A stretch of 64,000 nt of DNA, taken from Planctomycetota bacterium. GTDB lineage: Bacteria > Planctomycetota > PLA2 > JAEUHO01. Every line of letters begins with the position of its first letter. Position 1 is the stretch's first letter. The stretch spans positions 32,001 to 96,000 of the forward strand of contig CBDCWP010000008.1 in assembly GCA_965223505.1 (NCBI GenBank). The letters are read 5' to 3'. Position numbers: made by a program. Positions 33,001-42,000 of the stretch are shown here, piece by piece.

Positions 33001-36000
33001 CGCAGGCCGCCGCGACGGCGAGCGCGGCGAACGCGTCGTTTCGGAGCACGTTCACGCCCACGGCTTTCTCGTCGGAGACGACGTCGCGCACCTGGCGCGC
33101 GGCCGAGCTCATCGCGGCGACGGTCTCGGGCGGCACGGTCTCCTTGAAGAACGGCGCGTCGCCGTAGTTCTCGACGATCACGCCGTCGAAGCCGGCCTCG
33201 TCCAGGAGCGCCGCGTCGGCCTCGGCCCGCGCGAGCCACGCGTTGCTGCCCGTCTTCCACCCCGGCGAGCCCGGGAGCGGCGGCAGGTGAATCACGCCCA
33301 GGAGCAACGGGCGCGGGCTCAGCGGGTCGCGGGAAGTGGAGCGGGCGGGCATGGCGGATCCGGTCGGACGTGGCGTGGTCGGAATGCTATCCTGCCGCGC
33401 CCTGCGAAGGTCACAACCGAGAAGGAGTCCCTGCCATGGCCATCGAGCTTCCTCCGCTTCCGTACGCACAAGACGCCCTCGCGCCGCACATCAGCGCCGA
33501 GACGCTGGATTTCCACTACGGCAAGCACCACGCGGCGTACGTCGGCAACCTGAACGGCATGATCGAAGGCACGGACGATGCCGACAAGGACCTCGAGACG
33601 ATCATCATGGAGAGCGACGGCGGCAAGTTCAACAACGCCGCGCAGATCTGGAACCATTCATTCTACTGGAATTGCATGAAGGCCGGCGGCGGTGGTGCAC
33701 CCTCCGGCGCGCTGGCCGAGGCGATCGACCGCGACTTCGGTTCGTTCGAGAAGTTCGCGACGGACTTCAAGCAGGCGGCGATGACCCAGTTCGGCTCAGG
33801 CTGGGCCTGGCTCGCGCAGAAGGACGGAAAGCTCGAGATCCAGAAGACCGCGAACGCCGGCCTGCCGATGAAGCACGGCGACAAGGCGCTCTTGACCTGC
33901 GACGTCTGGGAGCACGCCTACTACATCGACTACCGGAACGCGCGTGCGACGTACGTGGACGCGTTCCTCGAGCACCTGGTCAACTGGGAATTCGTGGCCT
34001 CCAACATGGGTTAGCCCCGGTGCGGTACACCGTCGGGGTCGACCTGGATCTGCCGCGCGATCGTGTCGTCGAGCTCTTCGACAGCACGGAGAACCTCTAC
34101 AAGTGGCAAGAGGGGCTGCAGAGCTTCGAGCCTCTGGAGGGAGAGCCCGGCCAGAAGGGCTCGACGGCGAAGATGTCGTTCTTGATGGGCAAGCGCAAGC
34201 TCGAGATGGTCGAGACCATCGACAAGCGCAACCTGCCCGACGAACTCGACACGACCTACGAAGCGCGGGGGTGTCTCAACGTCTGCAAGAACCGCTTCAT
34301 CGAGCTCGGGCCGGACAAGACCCGCTGGGAGGCCGACCAGCAGTTCAAGTTCTCGGGACCGATGAAGCTGTTCGCCTGGATGATGCCGGGCGCCTTCAAG
34401 AAGGTGAGCCTGAAGTACATGACCGACTTCAAGGCGTTCGCGGAGGAGGGCAAGGACGTCCGCGACGCCTCGTAACGATTGACCGAAACCCAACTGCTGA
34501 TCCTGCGCCTTTCGCTGGAAAGAGGTGTGTCTCAATGTCCGTCTTCATCAGCCACGCGCATATCGACAAAGGTCTGGCCAAGGGCCTGAAGAAGTTGATC
34601 GACAAGATCACGTCCAGGACCATCAAGGTCTGGCACTCGAGCGAGACGCGGCCGACCGGTGGCATGAAGTTCGGCAAGTACCGCGAGCAGATCAGCGAGA
34701 GGGTCGACGAGTCCAACATCATCGTCGTGATCCTCAGCCCGCAGTCCAGCGAGCGTCCATTCCTAGTCTGGGAGAGTGGTCTTGCGGAGGGGAAGAAGAA
34801 GGCGATCGTGCCGCTCCTGTTTTGGATGGATCCGAGTCGCACCCACGCCGTGTTCGAGCCGAATCAGTGCTTCCTCGGGGATGATCGCGAGAGCATCGAG
34901 AATCTCTGCGGACGCATTATCGAAGCGCAATCCGGTGAATCCCCGAACTCAAAGGACGTCGCGGGGTGGCGCTCGAAGATCCGGAAGTTCCTGAAGCGTG
35001 TCGAGGCCGAACGGAAGCGGTCCGACGAACGCATGCTCTTTCACGACCACTTCCACAACCACGATACCGCGGAGAAGGTCAGCGGTCGTTGGGCCGCGTT
35101 GTGGACCGGCTTCAAGGCTGACGGTAGCGAGGAGCGGTTCGAAGTAGACACGCTTCGCGCCTGGACGGACGAGACCCGTCTGCGGATGGTCGGCGACGGA
35201 GCCAAGGGCAAGCCCTATCCCATGGAGGGCGTCGTGTCCTCGCTCGGACAGATTGCGCTGACGTATTGGAGTGAAGGAAACACCGCGATTTGCGGCACGG
35301 TACTGCTCGATCCGGCGGGCGCCGACATCGGGTCCGCCTACCTGGGCACCTGGCAGGGCTTCACGGCCAAGGACCTGAAGTCCAAGCTCACGTACCATCG
35401 CGGCCGCGTCGCGATGGCGAGGATGGAAGAAGAGGACGACGACGGCGAAGCTGCCAAGTGGGTGCAAGACGTGCTCTCGAGGCCGTTCGACTGGATCGTC
35501 TAGCTACGGCAACCGGTACACCGCGCCGCGGCGCTTGCCGTCGCGCACCAACAGGCCGCGGTCCATCAGGTCGTGTAGATCGCGCAGCGCCGTTCGAGGC
35601 GACGTGCCCGTCATCTCGGTGTACTCGCGGTTCGTGCAGCGCCCGTTGCGCGCCAGGTAGTCGAGCAGCTTGCGCTGCCGAGGGTTGAGCTCGTCCTGCG
35701 GGGCGCCGCGCGGCGCCAACGTCGCGCCTTCGACGACCGTTCCGTCGAGCTGCAGATGCTCCGGCCCGACGTGGTCCGCCTCGCACAGGACCGCGCAGCG
35801 CTCGACCGCGTTCTTGAGCTCGCGCACGTTGCCCGGCCACGGGTGGCGATACAGCACGTCCATCGCGGCCGGCGTGAGCGCGATGGGACCGCGACCGGAA
35901 CGACGCCGGAAGTCGCGCAGGAACTTCTCCACCAGATGCGGGATCTCCTCGCGCCGCGACCGCAACGGCGGCAGCTCGAGACGAATCACGTTCAGCCGGT

Positions 36001-39000: not shown

Positions 39001-42000
39001 TGTGGCCGTACCCCTGGTTGTCCTGCCAGCGGTACGCGACGCGGCTCGTCATGGTCGACGGGCGCTCGAGGCCCGCCGGAAGACGCTCCGCGGCGAGGTG
39101 CTCGCCGTTGCGCAAGACGAGCGACTGCTGCTCCGCTTCACCGACGTCGTAGACTACGTCGATGCGCGCCAGCTCGCTGTCGCCGAGCAGATCCGGGAAG
39201 GCGCGTGAAGCAGTCATCACGACCCAGAGACGGTCGCCGCCACCGAGCAGCGCCGGAATCGGCACCGTCATCGACTCCTCCGGCGCGAGGTTGCGGCCGT
39301 GATCGGGCCCGCCCGGGTGCGCCAGAACGGGGATGCCGTCTTCCGTTCGTCCGGAGAGCGGCAACGCCGTGCCTGCGTCGTCCAACGTGACGCGACGCAG
39401 CACGGAGAACGGCGCGCCCGCGGCCGGCGTCCAACGCAGACGCGACCACGCGCGCTCCTCGTCGACCCTGACGGTGGCCGGCGCGACCGCGGCGACGTCG
39501 CGCGTGACCGCCGTGCCGTCGTCGCTCTCGAGCGTGAGCCGTCCCAGGAAGGAGGACGCCGGACGTCCGCGCTCGACCGTTTCGATGTCCACGTCCAGCG
39601 ACAGCGCGCGGAAGCGCGTGGGCTCCGGCAGGTGGAAGACGCGTTCCTCGTCCAGCGCGATCCGGTAGCGCTTCTCGCGGTCGTCGCTGTACGCACCGTT
39701 CTCGTGCAGCGGCACGAACGCGACGCCGTCGATGCCGGGCCGGCATGGAACGGCTTCACCGCGCAGGAGCTGCGCGAGCATCGCGCTTCGATCCTCGATC
39801 GACGGCTCGAGCAGCGCGCCGACGGCCTGTGCTTCGGTCACGATCGGCCCTGCGCGATCCGCGAGGGCTTCGAGCTCGGCCAACACCTCCGATCGAGCGT
39901 CCTCGATGCTCAGCGAGCTCTGCAGGTGCACGCCGCCGGCGAGCAACCCGATCAAGCCGAGTCCGATCCACTTCGGCTTCGGACCCCACTGCGAAAGGGC
40001 GCGCGCACCGGGTCCCGCGAGCAGCAACGCCGCGCCCAACGCGATCACGCCGGCGAACAACCACCAGAGCGCGCGGCTCCCCTCGGAAGCTCCGACCGTC
40101 GTCGAGTCCGGCTCGCCGTAGGGCAGCACCAACACGCCGAACCGATTCGGATAGAGCCACAGGTCCGCACGCTCGTTCCAGGTCATGTACGTGCCGGGCT
40201 CGGACGGCCCGTCGTCGGCGTCGTTGATGGCGAGCGAGAAGCCGATCCTGCGCTCCTCGCGGGACGTGACCCCGAAGTTCGCGAGCGGGATGCGTACCTC
40301 CATGTCGTACGACCCGCCCTGCGTGCGGGTGTGCGCCATCTCGACGCCGCGCAGGCCGCCGTCGTCGAACTCGATGTGCTTGCGGCGCGAGACGACGCCC
40401 CACGCCAGCTCGGGGTTGAACGGCATGAGGAAGATCTGCCAGCAGCCGTCGGTGTACGCGTCCGCGACCTCCGTACCCGGCTCGTAGTCGAAGTTGAGGA
40501 AGACCTCCAGCGAGTCGCCGTGCCACCACGGTTCGGCCGGATCGTGAAAGCGCCGGTCGTCCGTGACCGTGGCCGCCAGAAAGAGGTCGTCGTCGTGAAC
40601 GGCCACCTGTACGACGGCGCTCAGGTCGGCGGGGCCCTTCCAGTACGCGCGACGCGCGGGCAGAACCTGCTCGGAGCGTCCGAGCACGGCCAGGGCGTCA
40701 CGAGGCACCCGCGTCCACTCATCGAGACGGCCGTCGATCGTCGGCGGGCGGTCCATCCGCTCGGCCTCGAGCACGAAGACCGTTGTGTCCGCCTCGTCGG
40801 CGCGCGCCGGCGACGGCCAGTGGGCCGCAACGCCCAGCACCAACAGCGCCAGCGCCCAACGGACACGGCGATGCCGGAATGTCCGATCTCGGTTGCGCGT
40901 GTCGAATTGGGGCAAGATGCGGCTCCTGAGCTGCAAATCGTTTCAAAACAAGGGGTTGTGCGCTTGGCTGGCGACGCGCGGCGGCCGTCGCCGATTCCGG
41001 CGGACAATTCCGCCATGAGCCTGCCCGATTTTAGGCGTCGTGGCCGGAAGGCGCCATGGGTGTACGCGGGGTCGTTCGCGCGGCCGTCGGGTCGACGTCG
41101 CGTACGGAACGGTCGCGCGGGTTGGCCGTGCGACCCCCATTTTCAGCCCTTTGCGGGTGAGGACGGAGCGGGCCCCAGCCGATGTTCTGGAGTACGCGCG
41201 GCGCCACGTTCGCATCTCGTTCGTCGGCCCCCCGCGCTACCGTGATCGCAGGTCGGACGCCGGGCGGGAATTTCGCCGCCGCGGCGGCGTGGAGCGTGCA
41301 TTCCGCGCTGCGCCTGCTACGGATGGGACCGAGCGCGACAAGGGAGGGCGGACTTGATGGGACGGATGCTGGGCAGAGTGGGAACCGCGGTCGTGTTGGG
41401 CGCCGCGCTCATCCTCGTTTTCACCGCGCCGCTCCTCGAGGCGGCGCCCGATGACCGGGTCCAGCCCGCCCGGGACCGCATCCTGGCCCGCGGTCCGACC
41501 ACCGTCGCACCCCGCAACCTCGTCTCGGCGGGAGGGGACCTCACGGCCCTGCAGCTTGCCGCTCGCTATCGCATGACCTACGCGGACGCGATCAATCACG
41601 TGAAGCTCGTCGGTCGCGACGGCCTCGTCCTGCGCCTCTACCCCGGCACGCCGGACGTCATCGTCTTCGGCAAGCGGGTCGAGCTGAAGGTGCGCATCGA
41701 GCGCGACGGTCGCGACGTCAAGATCCCCGCGAAGGCCGTCCGTTACCTGAGCGGCCGCATCGATCGCGAGCGGGCGCAGCGGGCGCGGACTGCCGCGAAG
41801 CCGGCGGCGCCGCGCGTGCCGAAGTACGTGCCCAAGTCGCGCCCCAAGCGGCCGGCCGTGGCCGTCACGCCCAAGCCGCAGCGCAAGGTCACGCCCAAGC
41901 CGCGCGTCGATCGCGGGTGGATCCCGAACGCGAAGGAGCGTTCGTGGAAGTACATCGTCGTCCATCACTCGGATGACCTGAGCGGCAACGCCGCGAAGTA

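What a model noticed while it worked through the whole genome (the two positions that open the first line are those of the whole stretch)
35504..40915. Membrane-integral sigma-54 activator with an outside CBM9 sensor and a degenerate GGDEF domain
g00416 is one 1,803-aa reading frame that runs from a signal anchor and an extracytoplasmic CBM9 carbohydrate-binding-like domain through five hydrophobic spans and two further outside regions to HAMP, a GGDEF domain with the motif RGEEL, and a complete sigma-54 activator (AAA+ with GAFTGA, lid, HTH). I read it as a one-component transmembrane enhancer-binding protein: it would sense a polysaccharide or other outside cue and switch sigma-54 promoters directly from the membrane, with no kinase in between. 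New would be a membrane-bound class of bacterial enhancer-binding proteins, which are described as soluble cytoplasmic proteins.
Evidence so far: Pfam on g00416: CBM9_1 92-264 (3.8e-17), HAMP 1078-1128 (4.8e-12), GGDEF 1300-1458 (1.2e-21), Sigma54_activat 1483-1646 (2.7e-74), AAA_lid_14, HTH_24 1743-1788. Sequence read by eye: hydrophobic stretches near 20-40, 283-300, 316-335, 764-810 (two), 1062-1084; ERGAFTGA present; GGDEF site reads LRGEELAV; no arginine-rich out-of-frame stretch of the kind that exposed the false fusion g01372. Six-frame search with residues 1001-1803 at E<=1e-120: a match in each of 28 of 28 other genomes of family JAEUHO01 (54-78% identity; over nearly the whole query where the contig allows), lying in open frames of about 1,800-2,000 aa in 21 of them, none in the 11 genomes of the sister family. 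Full-text sea [...]
(Added by a program. Inside this text positions count along the whole contig: contig position 32,001 is position 1 of the stretch shown here. "Call 12" and the like, gene names such as g00115 and contig names such as C1 are that model's own, and its searches are not shown. The text may have been shortened before it was handed on; [...] marks where a part breaks off. The agent that wrote the report below was given it as the finding of a first reader that could run no searches.)

Follow-up and report, generated by a model that had tools for sequence, protein, structure and literature searches.

The report
Membrane-spanning sigma-54 activator of planctomycetes
This is one real, conserved gene for a sigma-54 transcription activator built into the cell membrane with three sensor domains on the outside, a layout hardly discussed in print although look-alikes sit unremarked in databases.

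Summary
Window 35504-40915 (minus strand) is one intact 1,803-codon gene with coding-type GC3 throughout. The start is a TTG with AGGAG 7 nt upstream.

Order of parts: signal peptide, CBM9-like domain, TM1-TM2, a 410-aa beta-sandwich region, TM3-TM4, a dCache domain, TM5, HAMP, GAF-like, a dead GGDEF domain, a sigma-54 AAA+ domain with GAFTGA, a lid, and a winged helix in place of the usual Fis-type HTH.

Topology is supported by conserved hydropathy, the positive-inside rule and two AlphaFold models (pLDDT 92).

Full-length homologues occur in 28 of 28 family genomes. Across the phylum, 39 of 301 sampled genomes (own included) have one.

Best reading: a one-component transmembrane enhancer-binding protein. 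Whether it acts from the membrane or is released by cleavage is untested. The ligand and target promoter are unknown.

"New class" is overstated. Desulfovibrionaceae proteins resembling the published DVU0151 share the TM-sensor-TM-AAA+-winged-helix plan, and other membrane-anchored activators turned up. This scan had already noted this kind of protein on other DNA, including a 1,878-aa planctomycete one. I found no paper that discusses membrane-integral sigma-54 activators.

The parts
35504..40915 (-). Whole gene: 1,803 codons plus stop. Starts at a TTG with AGGAG 7 nt upstream. The longest frame reaches 40936.
   Evidence: GC3 0.82-0.95 throughout; equals P0002
40799..40915 (-). Signal peptide (residues 8-46 in P0001 numbering): Arg-rich n-region, WALALLVLGVAA core, A-R-A then D
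   Evidence: Sequence read. Homologues have the same type of N-terminus. Cleavage is inferred; no predictor was available.
40124..40642 (-). CBM9-like domain, outside the membrane (residues 99-271)
   Evidence: Pfam CBM9_1, 61.8 bits against a cut-off of 23.4. Invariant columns include W74, W99, D126, D141, E144, among others.
40007..40072 (-). TM1 (about residues 289-310)
   Evidence: Hydropathy 2.2. Conserved position in 44 of 44 homologues.
39914..39970 (-). TM2 (about residues 323-341). Weak in this protein (1.4), stronger in homologues (1.4-2.9).
   Evidence: The TM1-TM2 loop has 0.35 K+R per residue and almost no D/E.
38666..39904 (-). Outside region A (residues 345-757): a stalk helix followed by beta-sandwich (jelly-roll, CBM-like) domains
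   Evidence: AlphaFold model m34a593a1d7df, pLDDT 92.4. VIA-align best matches: AziU3/U2 Z 10.7, BcsB Z 8.2, CBM8 Z 8.0, then many CBMs at Z 6.5-7.6. Foldseek gave only weak hits.
38591..38656 (-). TM3 (about residues 761-782)
   Evidence: Hydropathy 3.1. Conserved in 44 of 44.
38501..38560 (-). TM4 (about residues 793-812)
   Evidence: Hydropathy 2.5. The TM3-TM4 loop has 0.33 K+R per residue. It forms a continuous helix into the dCache stalk in the model.
37739..38494 (-). Outside region B (residues 815-1066): double Cache (dCache) ligand-binding domain
   Evidence: AlphaFold model m5bda16f36047, pLDDT 91.9. Foldseek gave 81 PDB matches at E<=0.001, led by McpB/McpC and the PctA, PctB, Tlp3, TlpA and Mlp24 sensor domains. 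The Atlas features also point to dCache.
37673..37735 (-). TM5 (about residues 1068-1088)
   Evidence: Hydropathy 2.5. Conserved in 44 of 44. The helix runs on into HAMP in the model.
37532..37684 (-). HAMP domain (residues 1085-1135)
   Evidence: Pfam HAMP, 46.2 bits. Invariant G1107, D1119, E1120, L1124, F1128, M1131, L1135.
37037..37519 (-). GAF-like region (about residues 1140-1300)
   Evidence: GAF_3 is only weak here (E 0.064). GAF_2 or GAF is precomputed for several homologues such as P0003, P0006 and P0011.
36542..37018 (-). Degenerate GGDEF domain (residues 1307-1465), motif RGEEL
   Evidence: Pfam GGDEF, 76 bits. None of 44 homologues has GG[DE]EF. Aligned to the cyclase 3ign, DIDHFKPVND reads GLDHVEHVTL. 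No RxxD stands five residues before the motif.
35978..36469 (-). Sigma-54 interaction AAA+ domain (residues 1490-1653) with Walker A GETGTGKE, GAFTGA and Walker B DE
   Evidence: Pfam, 247 bits. GAFTGA in 44 of 44. Walker A, Walker B and several arginine columns are invariant.
35750..35962 (-). AAA+ lid (residues 1659-1729)
   Evidence: Pfam AAA_lid_14, 74.6 bits
35552..35689 (-). C-terminal winged helix-turn-helix (residues 1750-1795), in place of the usual Fis-type HTH_8
   Evidence: Pfam HTH_24 at 7e-6 and HTH_DeoR at 2.6e-4. Near-invariant across the family. Homologous to the C-terminus of about 860-aa Desulfovibrionaceae activators.
40999..41014 (.). Short inverted repeat GGCGGA-CAAT-TCCGCC, 84 nt upstream of the start. 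Related 8-mers bracket the start of the gene in 6 of 16 genomes. Role unknown.
   Evidence: Not enriched genome-wide.
41354..42421 (+). Context only: a divergent neighbour gene with an Amidase_2 (N-acetylmuramoyl-L-alanine amidase) domain
   Evidence: Pfam. Adjacent and divergent in 7 of 10 related loci, and present within 5 kb in an eighth. No sigma-54 promoter found upstream.

Best explanation
The gene encodes a one-component, membrane-integral bacterial enhancer-binding protein of an uncultured planctomycete.

Shown by computation:
- A Sec-type signal peptide puts a CBM9-like domain outside the membrane.
- Two helical hairpins (TM1-TM2, TM3-TM4) and a fifth helix thread the chain through the membrane. 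As a result, a 410-aa beta-sandwich region and a dCache domain also lie outside.
- HAMP, a GAF-like domain, a catalytically dead GGDEF domain, an intact sigma-54 AAA+ ATPase and a winged-helix DNA-binding domain lie inside.

Inferred mechanism:
- A ligand or envelope cue binds at the outside domains.
- This changes the packing of the TM5-HAMP helices in a dimer, as in chemoreceptors and membrane diguanylate cyclases.
- The GAF-like and GGDEF domains now serve only as a conformational relay. They pass the change on to the AAA+ domains.
- The AAA+ domains are then freed, or positioned, to assemble into the ATP-hydrolysing ring that remodels sigma-54 holoenzyme at a promoter. The winged helix brings that promoter to the membrane.
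- No kinase or receiver step is involved.

The ligand, the target promoter, and whether the protein stays uncleaved are not shown.
For: Gene integrity: one frame, uniform GC3 0.82-0.95, SD plus TTG start.

Conservation of the full length:
- 28 of 28 family genomes
- 11 of 11 sister-family genomes
- 39 of 301 sampled genomes of the phylum, own included
- 41 of the 120 listed database clusters carry CBM9, HAMP, GGDEF and Sigma54_activat together

Activator identity:
- Sigma54_activat at 247 bits.
- GAFTGA in 44 of 44.
- Walker A, Walker B and several arginine columns invariant.
- rpoN present in the genome.
- No receiver or kinase family among the hits.

Topology:
- Five hydrophobic segments at conserved positions in 44 of 44.
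- The two short loops predicted to be inside have 0.33-0.35 K+R per residue and 0.16-0.39 acidic residues. Outside flanks have 0.10-0.22 K+R per residue and are charge-balanced.
- The model of residues 786-1140 is helix-dCache-helix-HAMP at pLDDT 91.9. It matches chemoreceptor and kinase dCache sensor domains, with 81 PDB chains at E<=0.001.

Relay rather than enzyme: GG[DE]EF is absent in 44 of 44, and the metal- and GTP-site residues are replaced in the alignment to 3ign.

The sensor array goes with this output. Full-length matches to residues 47-1140 were found only in proteins of this family among 1.84 billion representatives.

Precedent for the plan: Desulfovibrionaceae proteins with TM, periplasmic region, TM, (HAMP), AAA+ and winged helix are 40% identical over AAA+ to winged helix.
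Against: - No sigma-54 promoter or enhancer was found next to the gene. The window has 36 loose matches against 53 expected. The best site upstream of the conserved divergent amidase genes scores 11.5 of 14.5. On the contig, the only match near the gene lies inside its own coding region.
- TM2 and the signal peptide are weak by hydropathy in this protein, and no dedicated topology or signal-peptide predictor could be run.
- The stretch before TM3 is K/R-rich in this protein (SRVADKRERTK), which goes against the positive-inside rule locally.
- The linker between GGDEF and AAA+ is short, so ring assembly by a five-helix membrane protein is sterically untested.
- Nothing excludes cleavage. Shorter database entries that start within or after HAMP exist (P0276, P0265, P0151), though most sit on short contigs and look like fragments.
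Confidence: 0.65

Rival explanations
1. A membrane-tethered pro-activator. The outside domains and TM helices hold the protein inactive. A signal triggers proteolysis near TM5 or HAMP, and a soluble GAF-GGDEF-AAA+-winged-helix fragment then works in the cytoplasm like an ordinary activator.
For: - Regulated cleavage is established for other membrane-bound regulators. I saw only search listings for the reviews and for the CadC cleavage paper PMC11484849.
- Database entries begin at or after HAMP: P0276 (679 aa), P0265 (468 aa), P0151 (785 aa).
- A soluble hexamer avoids the steric problem of assembling a ring from 5-TM subunits.
Against: - A bare tether would not need a conserved dCache-TM-HAMP-GAF-GGDEF chain. 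HAMP residues are invariant in 44 of 44, which argues for conformational signalling through the intact chain.
- The short entries lie mostly on contigs of 1-16 kb and start mid-domain, as gene fragments do.
- No protease gene is specifically linked. An M28-PDZ peptidase gene lies 4 kb away, but within generally conserved synteny.
Confidence: 0.2
2. A membrane sensor whose AAA+ and winged-helix part no longer activates sigma-54. It would act as a repressor or scaffold, or respond to c-di-GMP or GTP through the GGDEF domain.
For: - The DNA-binding domain is atypical: winged helix rather than Fis type.
- No cognate promoter was found.
- Earlier scan notes describe membrane-anchored, motif-dead relatives of activators in other phyla (unchecked).
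Against: - GAFTGA is present in 44 of 44, and Walker A, Walker B and several arginine columns are invariant. That is the signature of a working sigma-54 activator.
- rpoN is present.
- The GGDEF domain lacks the RxxD site and the GTP-site residues, so nucleotide sensing by known modes is unlikely.
Confidence: 0.08
3. An artefact: a false fusion of a membrane sensor gene and an activator gene through an assembly or frame error.
For: The length is very unusual for an activator, and the genome is a 44-contig assembly.
Against: - The same colinear frame occurs in independent assemblies: 28 of 28 plus 11 of 11 genomes.
- Dozens of database clusters from several sources carry it.
- GC3 is uniform.
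- There are no stops inside any listed full-length match.
Confidence: 0.01

Closest known systems
Classical bacterial enhancer-binding proteins (NtrC, NifA, DctD, PspF, XylR/DmpR; Pfam PF00158)
   Same: AAA+ sigma-54 interaction domain with GAFTGA, a lid and a C-terminal DNA-binding domain. The best NCBIfam similarity is to NifA, RtcR, FlbD, AtoC and NorR over residues about 1483-1755.
   Different: All NCBIfam scores are below the equivalog cut-offs. The input is a 1,480-residue, five-span membrane sensor array instead of a soluble receiver, GAF, PAS or V4R domain. The DNA-binding domain is a winged helix, not Fis-type HTH_8.
DVU0151-type activators of Desulfovibrionales (Kazakov et al. 2015, PMC4641369; passages read)
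   Same: - The paper describes a one-component activator with a 'long conserved N-terminal region' and a winged-helix rather than Fis-type DNA-binding domain.
- About 860-aa Desulfovibrionaceae proteins with the same GAFSEA loop (P0295, P0304, P0307, P0312 and others) have hydrophobic segments at about 28 and about 372.
- One of them (P0317) has a weak HAMP hit.
- P0295 is 40% identical to this protein from AAA+ through the winged helix.
   Different: - Two TM segments and one periplasmic region, against five TM segments and three outside regions here.
- No CBM9, GAF-like or GGDEF domains.
- GAFSEA loop instead of GAFTGA.
- Different phylum.
- The passages I read do not mention membrane anchoring.
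- I did not have the DVU0151 sequence itself, so orthology of P0295 to it is inferred from the loop motif, the taxon and an earlier scan note.
Transmembrane transcription regulators (ToxR, TcpP, CadC; survey PMC10269533)
   Same: One protein joins an outside sensor, a TM region and a cytoplasmic DNA-binding domain, and is thought to act on DNA from the membrane (passages read).
   Different: - Those are mostly single-pass proteins with an N-terminal OmpR-type domain, and they act with sigma-70 polymerase without ATP.
- This protein needs an AAA+ ring and sigma-54.
- The survey's supplements list 50,302 such regulators but contain the string 'Sigma54' 0 times.
dCache-HAMP membrane receptors: chemoreceptors PctA, Tlp3, TlpA and McpB; sensor kinases; membrane diguanylate cyclases
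   Same: The TM-dCache-TM-HAMP module, and for the cyclases a following GGDEF domain.
   Different: The output is a transcription activator, and the GGDEF domain has lost its active site.
Rsp of Neisseria gonorrhoeae (fusion of the PilS-like kinase gene nps with the PilR-like activator gene npa)
   Same: A membrane sensor part fused to part of a sigma-54 activator (passages in PMC10269533 and PMC6528607).
   Different: It is described as a modified remnant of a two-component system with no apparent role in pilE transcription. It is not a conserved functional family.

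Membership tests
Bacterial enhancer-binding proteins (sigma-54 activators) | AAA+ sigma-54 interaction domain above the Pfam threshold | tested here: met
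   PF00158 at 247 bits against a cut-off of 20.2, residues 1490-1653
Bacterial enhancer-binding proteins (sigma-54 activators) | GAFTGA loop that contacts sigma-54 | tested here: met
   ERGAFTGA in this protein. GAFTGA in 44 of 44 homologues.
Bacterial enhancer-binding proteins (sigma-54 activators) | Walker A, Walker B and arginine residues for ATP hydrolysis | tested here: met
   GETGTGKE, the D1586/E1587 pair, and R1641, R1647 and R1705 are invariant columns. Assigning these arginines to finger or sensor roles is from recall.
Bacterial enhancer-binding proteins (sigma-54 activators) | C-terminal DNA-binding domain | tested here: met
   Present, but as a winged helix (HTH_24, HTH_DeoR) rather than HTH_8
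Bacterial enhancer-binding proteins (sigma-54 activators) | Sigma-54 encoded in the same genome | tested here: met
   Sigma54_DBD match at 208 bits on contig C37. Canonical TGGCAC-N5-TTGCW sites exist in the genome.
Bacterial enhancer-binding proteins (sigma-54 activators) | A cognate sigma-54 promoter with upstream binding sites | tested here: inconclusive
   None recognised near the gene or its conserved neighbour. Targets may lie elsewhere.
Bacterial enhancer-binding proteins (sigma-54 activators) | ATP-dependent open-complex formation | not testable with these tools
   Needs biochemistry
Diguanylate cyclases (GGDEF enzymes) | GGDEF-domain fold or sequence family | tested here: met
   PF00990 at 76 bits. 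38 PDB GGDEF chains matched at E<=0.001.
Diguanylate cyclases (GGDEF enzymes) | GG[DE]EF active-site motif | tested here: not met
   RGEEL here. 0 of 44 homologues have GG[DE]EF.
Diguanylate cyclases (GGDEF enzymes) | Metal- and GTP-binding residues of the DxDxFKxxND stretch | tested here: not met
   Aligned to 3ign, DIDHFKPVND reads GLDHVEHVTL. The roles of these residues are from recall (PleD).
Diguanylate cyclases (GGDEF enzymes) | RxxD inhibitory c-di-GMP site five residues before the motif | tested here: not met
   The position reads GDRS here, with no conserved D in the family
dCache-HAMP transmembrane receptors | Double-Cache fold flanked by two TM helices | tested here: met
   Model at pLDDT 91.9. 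Foldseek matches to the McpB/McpC model (9a69_B, E 7.7e-11), PctA, Tlp3, TlpA and Mlp24. No Pfam dCache hit.
dCache-HAMP transmembrane receptors | HAMP immediately after the second TM helix | tested here: met
   TM5 at 1068-1088, HAMP at 1085-1135
Transmembrane transcription regulators, as defined in PMC10269533 (a TM region plus a DNA-binding domain) | At least one predicted TM region and a DNA-binding domain in one protein | tested here: met
   The definition was read.
DVU0151-type activators | Winged-helix C-terminus homologous to that of the Desulfovibrionales proteins | tested here: met
   BLASTP against P0295 gives 40% identity over 349 columns, E 1e-67, running through the LNPRQR...RTA..DL winged helix
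DVU0151-type activators | GAFSEA loop and a two-TM, single-sensor plan | tested here: not met
   GAFTGA and five TM segments here. GAFSEA and two TM segments there.
CBM9 carbohydrate-binding modules | Sequence family membership | tested here: met
   PF06452 at 61.8 bits against a cut-off of 23.4
CBM9 carbohydrate-binding modules | Binding of a carbohydrate | not testable with these tools
   Needs binding assays. From recall, this Pfam family is grouped with DOMON-like haem- or sugar-binding domains.

The most novel reading that the evidence does not exclude
A phylum-wide family of sigma-54 activators works while embedded in the cytoplasmic membrane. Glycan or small-ligand binding at three periplasmic domains is passed through HAMP and a recycled, dead diguanylate-cyclase domain. 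That signal switches assembly of the AAA+ ring, so sigma-54 promoters are melted at the membrane with no kinase, second messenger or proteolysis. Together with the DVU0151-like and other membrane-anchored forms, this would make membrane-integral enhancer-binding proteins a general, overlooked branch of bacterial signalling.
Probability: 0.45. Interest if true: 0.75.

Novelty: new variant of a known kind. Interest (0 to 1): 0.6.

Why it matters
Enhancer-binding proteins are generally described as soluble (from recall; the 2012 review by Bush and Dixon was not held). Outside signals reach them through a kinase or a partner protein.

A conserved family that wires periplasmic sensor domains directly to the AAA+ motor poses two concrete questions. 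How does a ring of membrane-embedded subunits assemble? How does promoter DNA reach it?

It also offers a minimal system for studying transmembrane control of AAA+ assembly. It gives an example of a GGDEF domain kept only as a signal relay. And it could link envelope or polysaccharide sensing to sigma-54 regulons in planctomycetes, which are important degraders of polysaccharides.

The value is tempered. The organism is uncultured, no target is known, and similar architectures already sit in databases and in one published regulon catalogue.

Tried and rejected
- Contig-to-window conversion. Looking at 3504-8915 showed no such frame. The finding's coordinates are window coordinates.
- Sigma-54 promoter search near the gene.
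  - A loose consensus scan of the window gave 36 matches against 53 expected.
  - A weighted scan upstream of 9 amidase genes gave no convincing site.
  - The genome-wide scan found canonical sites, but none near the gene.
- Shared 9-mers in the divergent intergenic regions led only to the GGCGGAAT/ATTCCGCC pair.
  - It is not enriched genome-wide.
  - It shows no covariation, so it gave no regulon.
- The Atlas feature search for region A gave no usable hit.
- Foldseek on region A gave only weak jelly-roll matches with TM-scores around 0.2.
- The search for related loci on genome contigs chose patterns from the AAA+ core and returned generic activators. The two loci whose match reached back to residue about 1050-1070 turned out to be separate kinase and activator genes.
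- The search of earlier findings by sequence found nothing.
- Papers. Bush and Dixon 2012 and Studholme and Dixon 2003 are not held, so I cannot say whether they mention transmembrane activators.
- I considered and dropped an expression check by sequencing runs and a complex prediction. Neither would decide the open questions.

Full report
**Where the gene is.** The start and end given in the finding are window coordinates. The window is G000:C8:32001-96000. Subtracting 32000 leads to a place with no such frame. An open frame of 1,810 codons lies at 35504..40936 on the minus strand. The only in-frame starts before the signal sequence are TTG at codon 1 and TTG at codon 8. The second has AGGAG 7 nt upstream.

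**One gene, not a fusion artefact.**
- GC at the third codon position is 0.82-0.95 in each of 18 consecutive 100-codon blocks.
- A six-frame search with the whole protein finds a colinear match in 28 of 28 other genomes of the family. Identity is 43-60%. The matches have no internal stops and lie in frames of 1,787-2,607 aa wherever the contig is long enough.
- The order holds only one other family. All 11 of its 11 genomes also have a homologue, full-length where contigs allow (32-35% identity, frames of 1,718-1,797 aa).
- In an even sample of the phylum, 39 of 301 genomes (own included; 32 of 191 high-quality ones) have a match at E<=1e-100. In the more distant families the match starts near residue 750 and lies in frames of about 1,850-2,120 aa.
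- In the 5.8-billion-protein collection, 41 of the 120 listed clusters carry CBM9_1, HAMP, GGDEF and Sigma54_activat together. Where a source gives a name, it is only "sigma 54-interacting transcriptional regulator" or "diguanylate cyclase (GGDEF)-like protein", from Planctomycetota metagenome bins.

| Domain | Residues |
|---|---|
| CBM9_1 | 99-271 |
| HAMP | 1085-1135 |
| GGDEF | 1307-1465 |
| Sigma54_activat | 1490-1653 |
| AAA_lid_14 | 1659-1729 |
| Winged helix (HTH_24, HTH_DeoR) | 1750-1795 |

- A GAF-like stretch between HAMP and GGDEF is weak here (E 0.064). It is called GAF_2 or GAF in several homologues.
- NCBIfam shows the closest sequence similarity to NifA, RtcR, FlbD, AtoC and NorR, over the AAA+ part only and below every equivalog cut-off.
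- No receiver or kinase family appears in either scan.

**Is it a working activator?** In an alignment of 44 full-length homologues:
- the Walker A GETGTGKE, the Walker B DE pair and several arginine columns are invariant;
- the winged helix is nearly invariant;
- GAFTGA is present in 44 of 44.

The genome has rpoN and about 23 strong Sigma54_activat matches. It also has canonical TGGCAC-N5-TTGCW sites.

**The GGDEF domain is dead.**
- None of the 44 sequences has GG[DE]EF. The motifs include REDEL (7), RGEEL (4) and RGEQL (3), among many others.
- Aligned to an active cyclase (3ign), the DIDHFKPVND stretch reads GLDHVEHVTL.
- No RxxD site precedes the motif.
- The fold is kept while the chemistry is lost. 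This fits a structural relay between HAMP/GAF and the AAA+ domain.

1. Kyte-Doolittle peaks at 289, 323 (weak here), 761, 793 and 1068 recur at the same alignment positions in 44 of 44 homologues. TM2 scores 1.4-2.9 in the others.
2. Most homologues begin with a basic n-region, a hydrophobic core and a small-residue cleavage motif. This protein reads ...RHRRVRWALALLVLGVAAHWPSPARA then DEA.
3. Charge follows the positive-inside rule. The two short loops that must be cytoplasmic (TM1-TM2, TM3-TM4) have 0.35 and 0.33 K+R per residue and almost no acidic residues. The outside flanks have 0.10-0.22 and are balanced. The K/R-rich stretch before TM3 in this protein is a local exception.
4. An AlphaFold model of residues 786-1140 (44-row alignment, pLDDT 91.9) is one long helix, two PAS-like modules, a second long helix and a HAMP hairpin.
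   - Foldseek matches it to full-length chemoreceptor models and to the dCache sensor domains of PctA, PctB, Tlp3, TlpA, Mlp24 and sensor kinases (81 chains at E<=0.001).
   - The Atlas features point the same way.
   - A dCache between two TM helices, followed by HAMP, fixes this part as out-in.
   - Parity then places region A and the CBM9 domain outside.

**Region A.** The model of residues 340-762 (pLDDT 92.4) is a stalk helix followed by beta-sandwiches.
- Foldseek gives only weak jelly-roll hits.
- The wide VIA-align search lists AziU3/U2 (Z 10.7, 150 aligned residues, rmsd 3.5), the BcsB carbohydrate-binding domain (Z 8.2), CBM8 (Z 8.0), and then a long run of carbohydrate-binding modules at Z 6.5-7.6.
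- The tool warns that Z values under 8 are common for unrelated chains.
- I therefore call this "CBM-like jelly roll, function open".

**The sensor array and its output.** A search of 1.84 billion representatives with residues 47-1140 found 29 proteins at E<=1e-30. Matches covering the whole array are confined to long proteins of this family. The other hits are fragments or match only the CBM9 part. I saw no case of this array joined to a kinase, cyclase or chemoreceptor output.

**Neighbourhood and targets.**
- Genes around it: Fe/Mn superoxide dismutase (33370-34014 +); a low-GC3 TIR-domain ORF converging on the stop; a divergent Amidase_2 gene (41354-42421 +); two TPR genes; an M28-PDZ peptidase; an O6-methylguanine-DNA methyltransferase-like gene (DNA_binding_1 domain).
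- In ten 19-kb loci from relatives, an amidase homologue is adjacent and divergent in 7 and 5 kb away in 1. None was called in 2; in one of those my GC3 filter failed.
- Most other neighbours are syntenic too, so this may be plain ancestry.
- No sigma-54 promoter precedes the amidase genes. The window is not enriched in promoter-like sites. The contig has none near the gene.
- The target remains unknown.

**What is known.** Six full-text searches found no paper describing a membrane-integral enhancer-binding protein. I saw listings for all six and passages of five papers.
- The Clostridiales survey states that most regulatory domains of 431 activators lack TM regions (PMC6615313, passage).
- The 2023 survey of transmembrane transcription regulators (PMC10269533) never mentions sigma or enhancer in its text. 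Its supplements hold 50,302 regulators, 72 HTH_8 and 42 HAMP entries, but 0 occurrences of "Sigma54".
- That paper cites Neisseria gonorrhoeae Rsp, a fusion of PilS-like and PilR-like genes. PMC6528607 describes it as a modified remnant without an apparent role in pilE transcription.
- Bush and Dixon 2012 and Studholme and Dixon 2003 were not available.

**Earlier notes of this scan** changed my reading.
- They point to DVU0151 of Desulfovibrio vulgaris. The passages of Kazakov et al. 2015 that I read list it as a one-component regulator with a GAFSEA loop, a long conserved N-terminal region of unknown function and a winged-helix instead of Fis-type domain. It is divergent from a sigma-54 promoter. 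They do not mention a membrane.
- Searching with this protein's lid plus winged helix found about 860-aa Desulfovibrionaceae proteins. These have a GAFSEA loop, hydrophobic segments at about 28 and about 372 and the same LNPRQR...RTA..DL...G.L winged helix. One has a weak HAMP hit.
- P0295 is 40% identical to this protein from AAA+ to the end (E 1e-67).
- I could not compare DVU0151 itself.
- Among the other 59 long activators listed, five have strong hydrophobic segments: P0073, P0086, P0105, P0111 and P0121.
- The same notes also report a 1,878-aa planctomycete activator with about six predicted TM segments (five membrane helices in the follow-up) and three outside modules on other DNA. Proteins of that size with CBM9 and Sigma54_activat are distant homologues of this one (P0054-P0058). 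I did not test that note's claim of an adjacent promoter and enhancer.

**Verdict.**
- The reading as a one-component transmembrane activator is the best-supported one. The architecture is near certain; action from the membrane without cleavage I put at about two in three.
- It is a new variant built from known modules, and a member of a conserved but undescribed planctomycete family.
- It is not the first membrane-anchored activator in the databases.

Noticed in passing
Own genome, contig C13, about 80-267 kb (outside the window): A low-GC island (0.54-0.61 against 0.674 for the genome). It holds 6 of the 6 perfect and 19 of the 62 one-mismatch-or-better TGGCAC-N5-TTGCW sites of the whole genome. 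By eye, the first ORFs downstream look like small stress proteins (CsbD-like, Pmp3-like and others). Two activator genes lie in it..
   Followed up: partly
Window 40999-41014; L018 6924-7023, L019 12390-12499, L015 12397-12505, L021 12325-12412, L017 12720-12821, L008 6904-7004: Inverted 8-mers GGCGGAAT ... ATTCCGCC, 72-107 nt apart, bracket the start of the activator gene in 6 of 16 genomes. In at least two of them (read by eye) the right arm encodes a conserved 'DSA' just after the start codon. The interior is not conserved. This window has only a 6-bp version with a 4-nt spacer, 84 nt upstream of the start. It could be an operator or a leader RNA stem; the role is unexplained.
   Followed up: partly
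Window 34541-35503 (+) and 30398-31663 (+): Two TIR-domain ORFs. The first has low GC3 and ends exactly where the activator gene's stop lies, so it may be acquired DNA.
   Followed up: no
Window 52290-52305 (+): CGGCACAGGCGTTGCG, a two-mismatch sigma-54-like site 40 nt upstream of ORF 52344-53225 (+). Another activator gene lies at window 59647-60147 (+).
   Followed up: no
Proteins P0073, P0105, P0111, P0086, P0121: Long sigma-54 activators from other lineages with strong hydrophobic segments. Examples: three segments plus PAS-AAA+-HTH_8, and a receiver-AAA+-HTH_8 fused to multihaem cytochrome and membrane parts.
   Followed up: partly
Own genome and relatives: The winged-helix type of C-terminus also occurs on P0288, a 602-aa planctomycete activator with no strong hydrophobic segment. 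Matches reaching past query residue 1780 suggest it also occurs on about 460-540-aa activators in these genomes. It therefore marks a subfamily, not only the membrane form.
   Followed up: no
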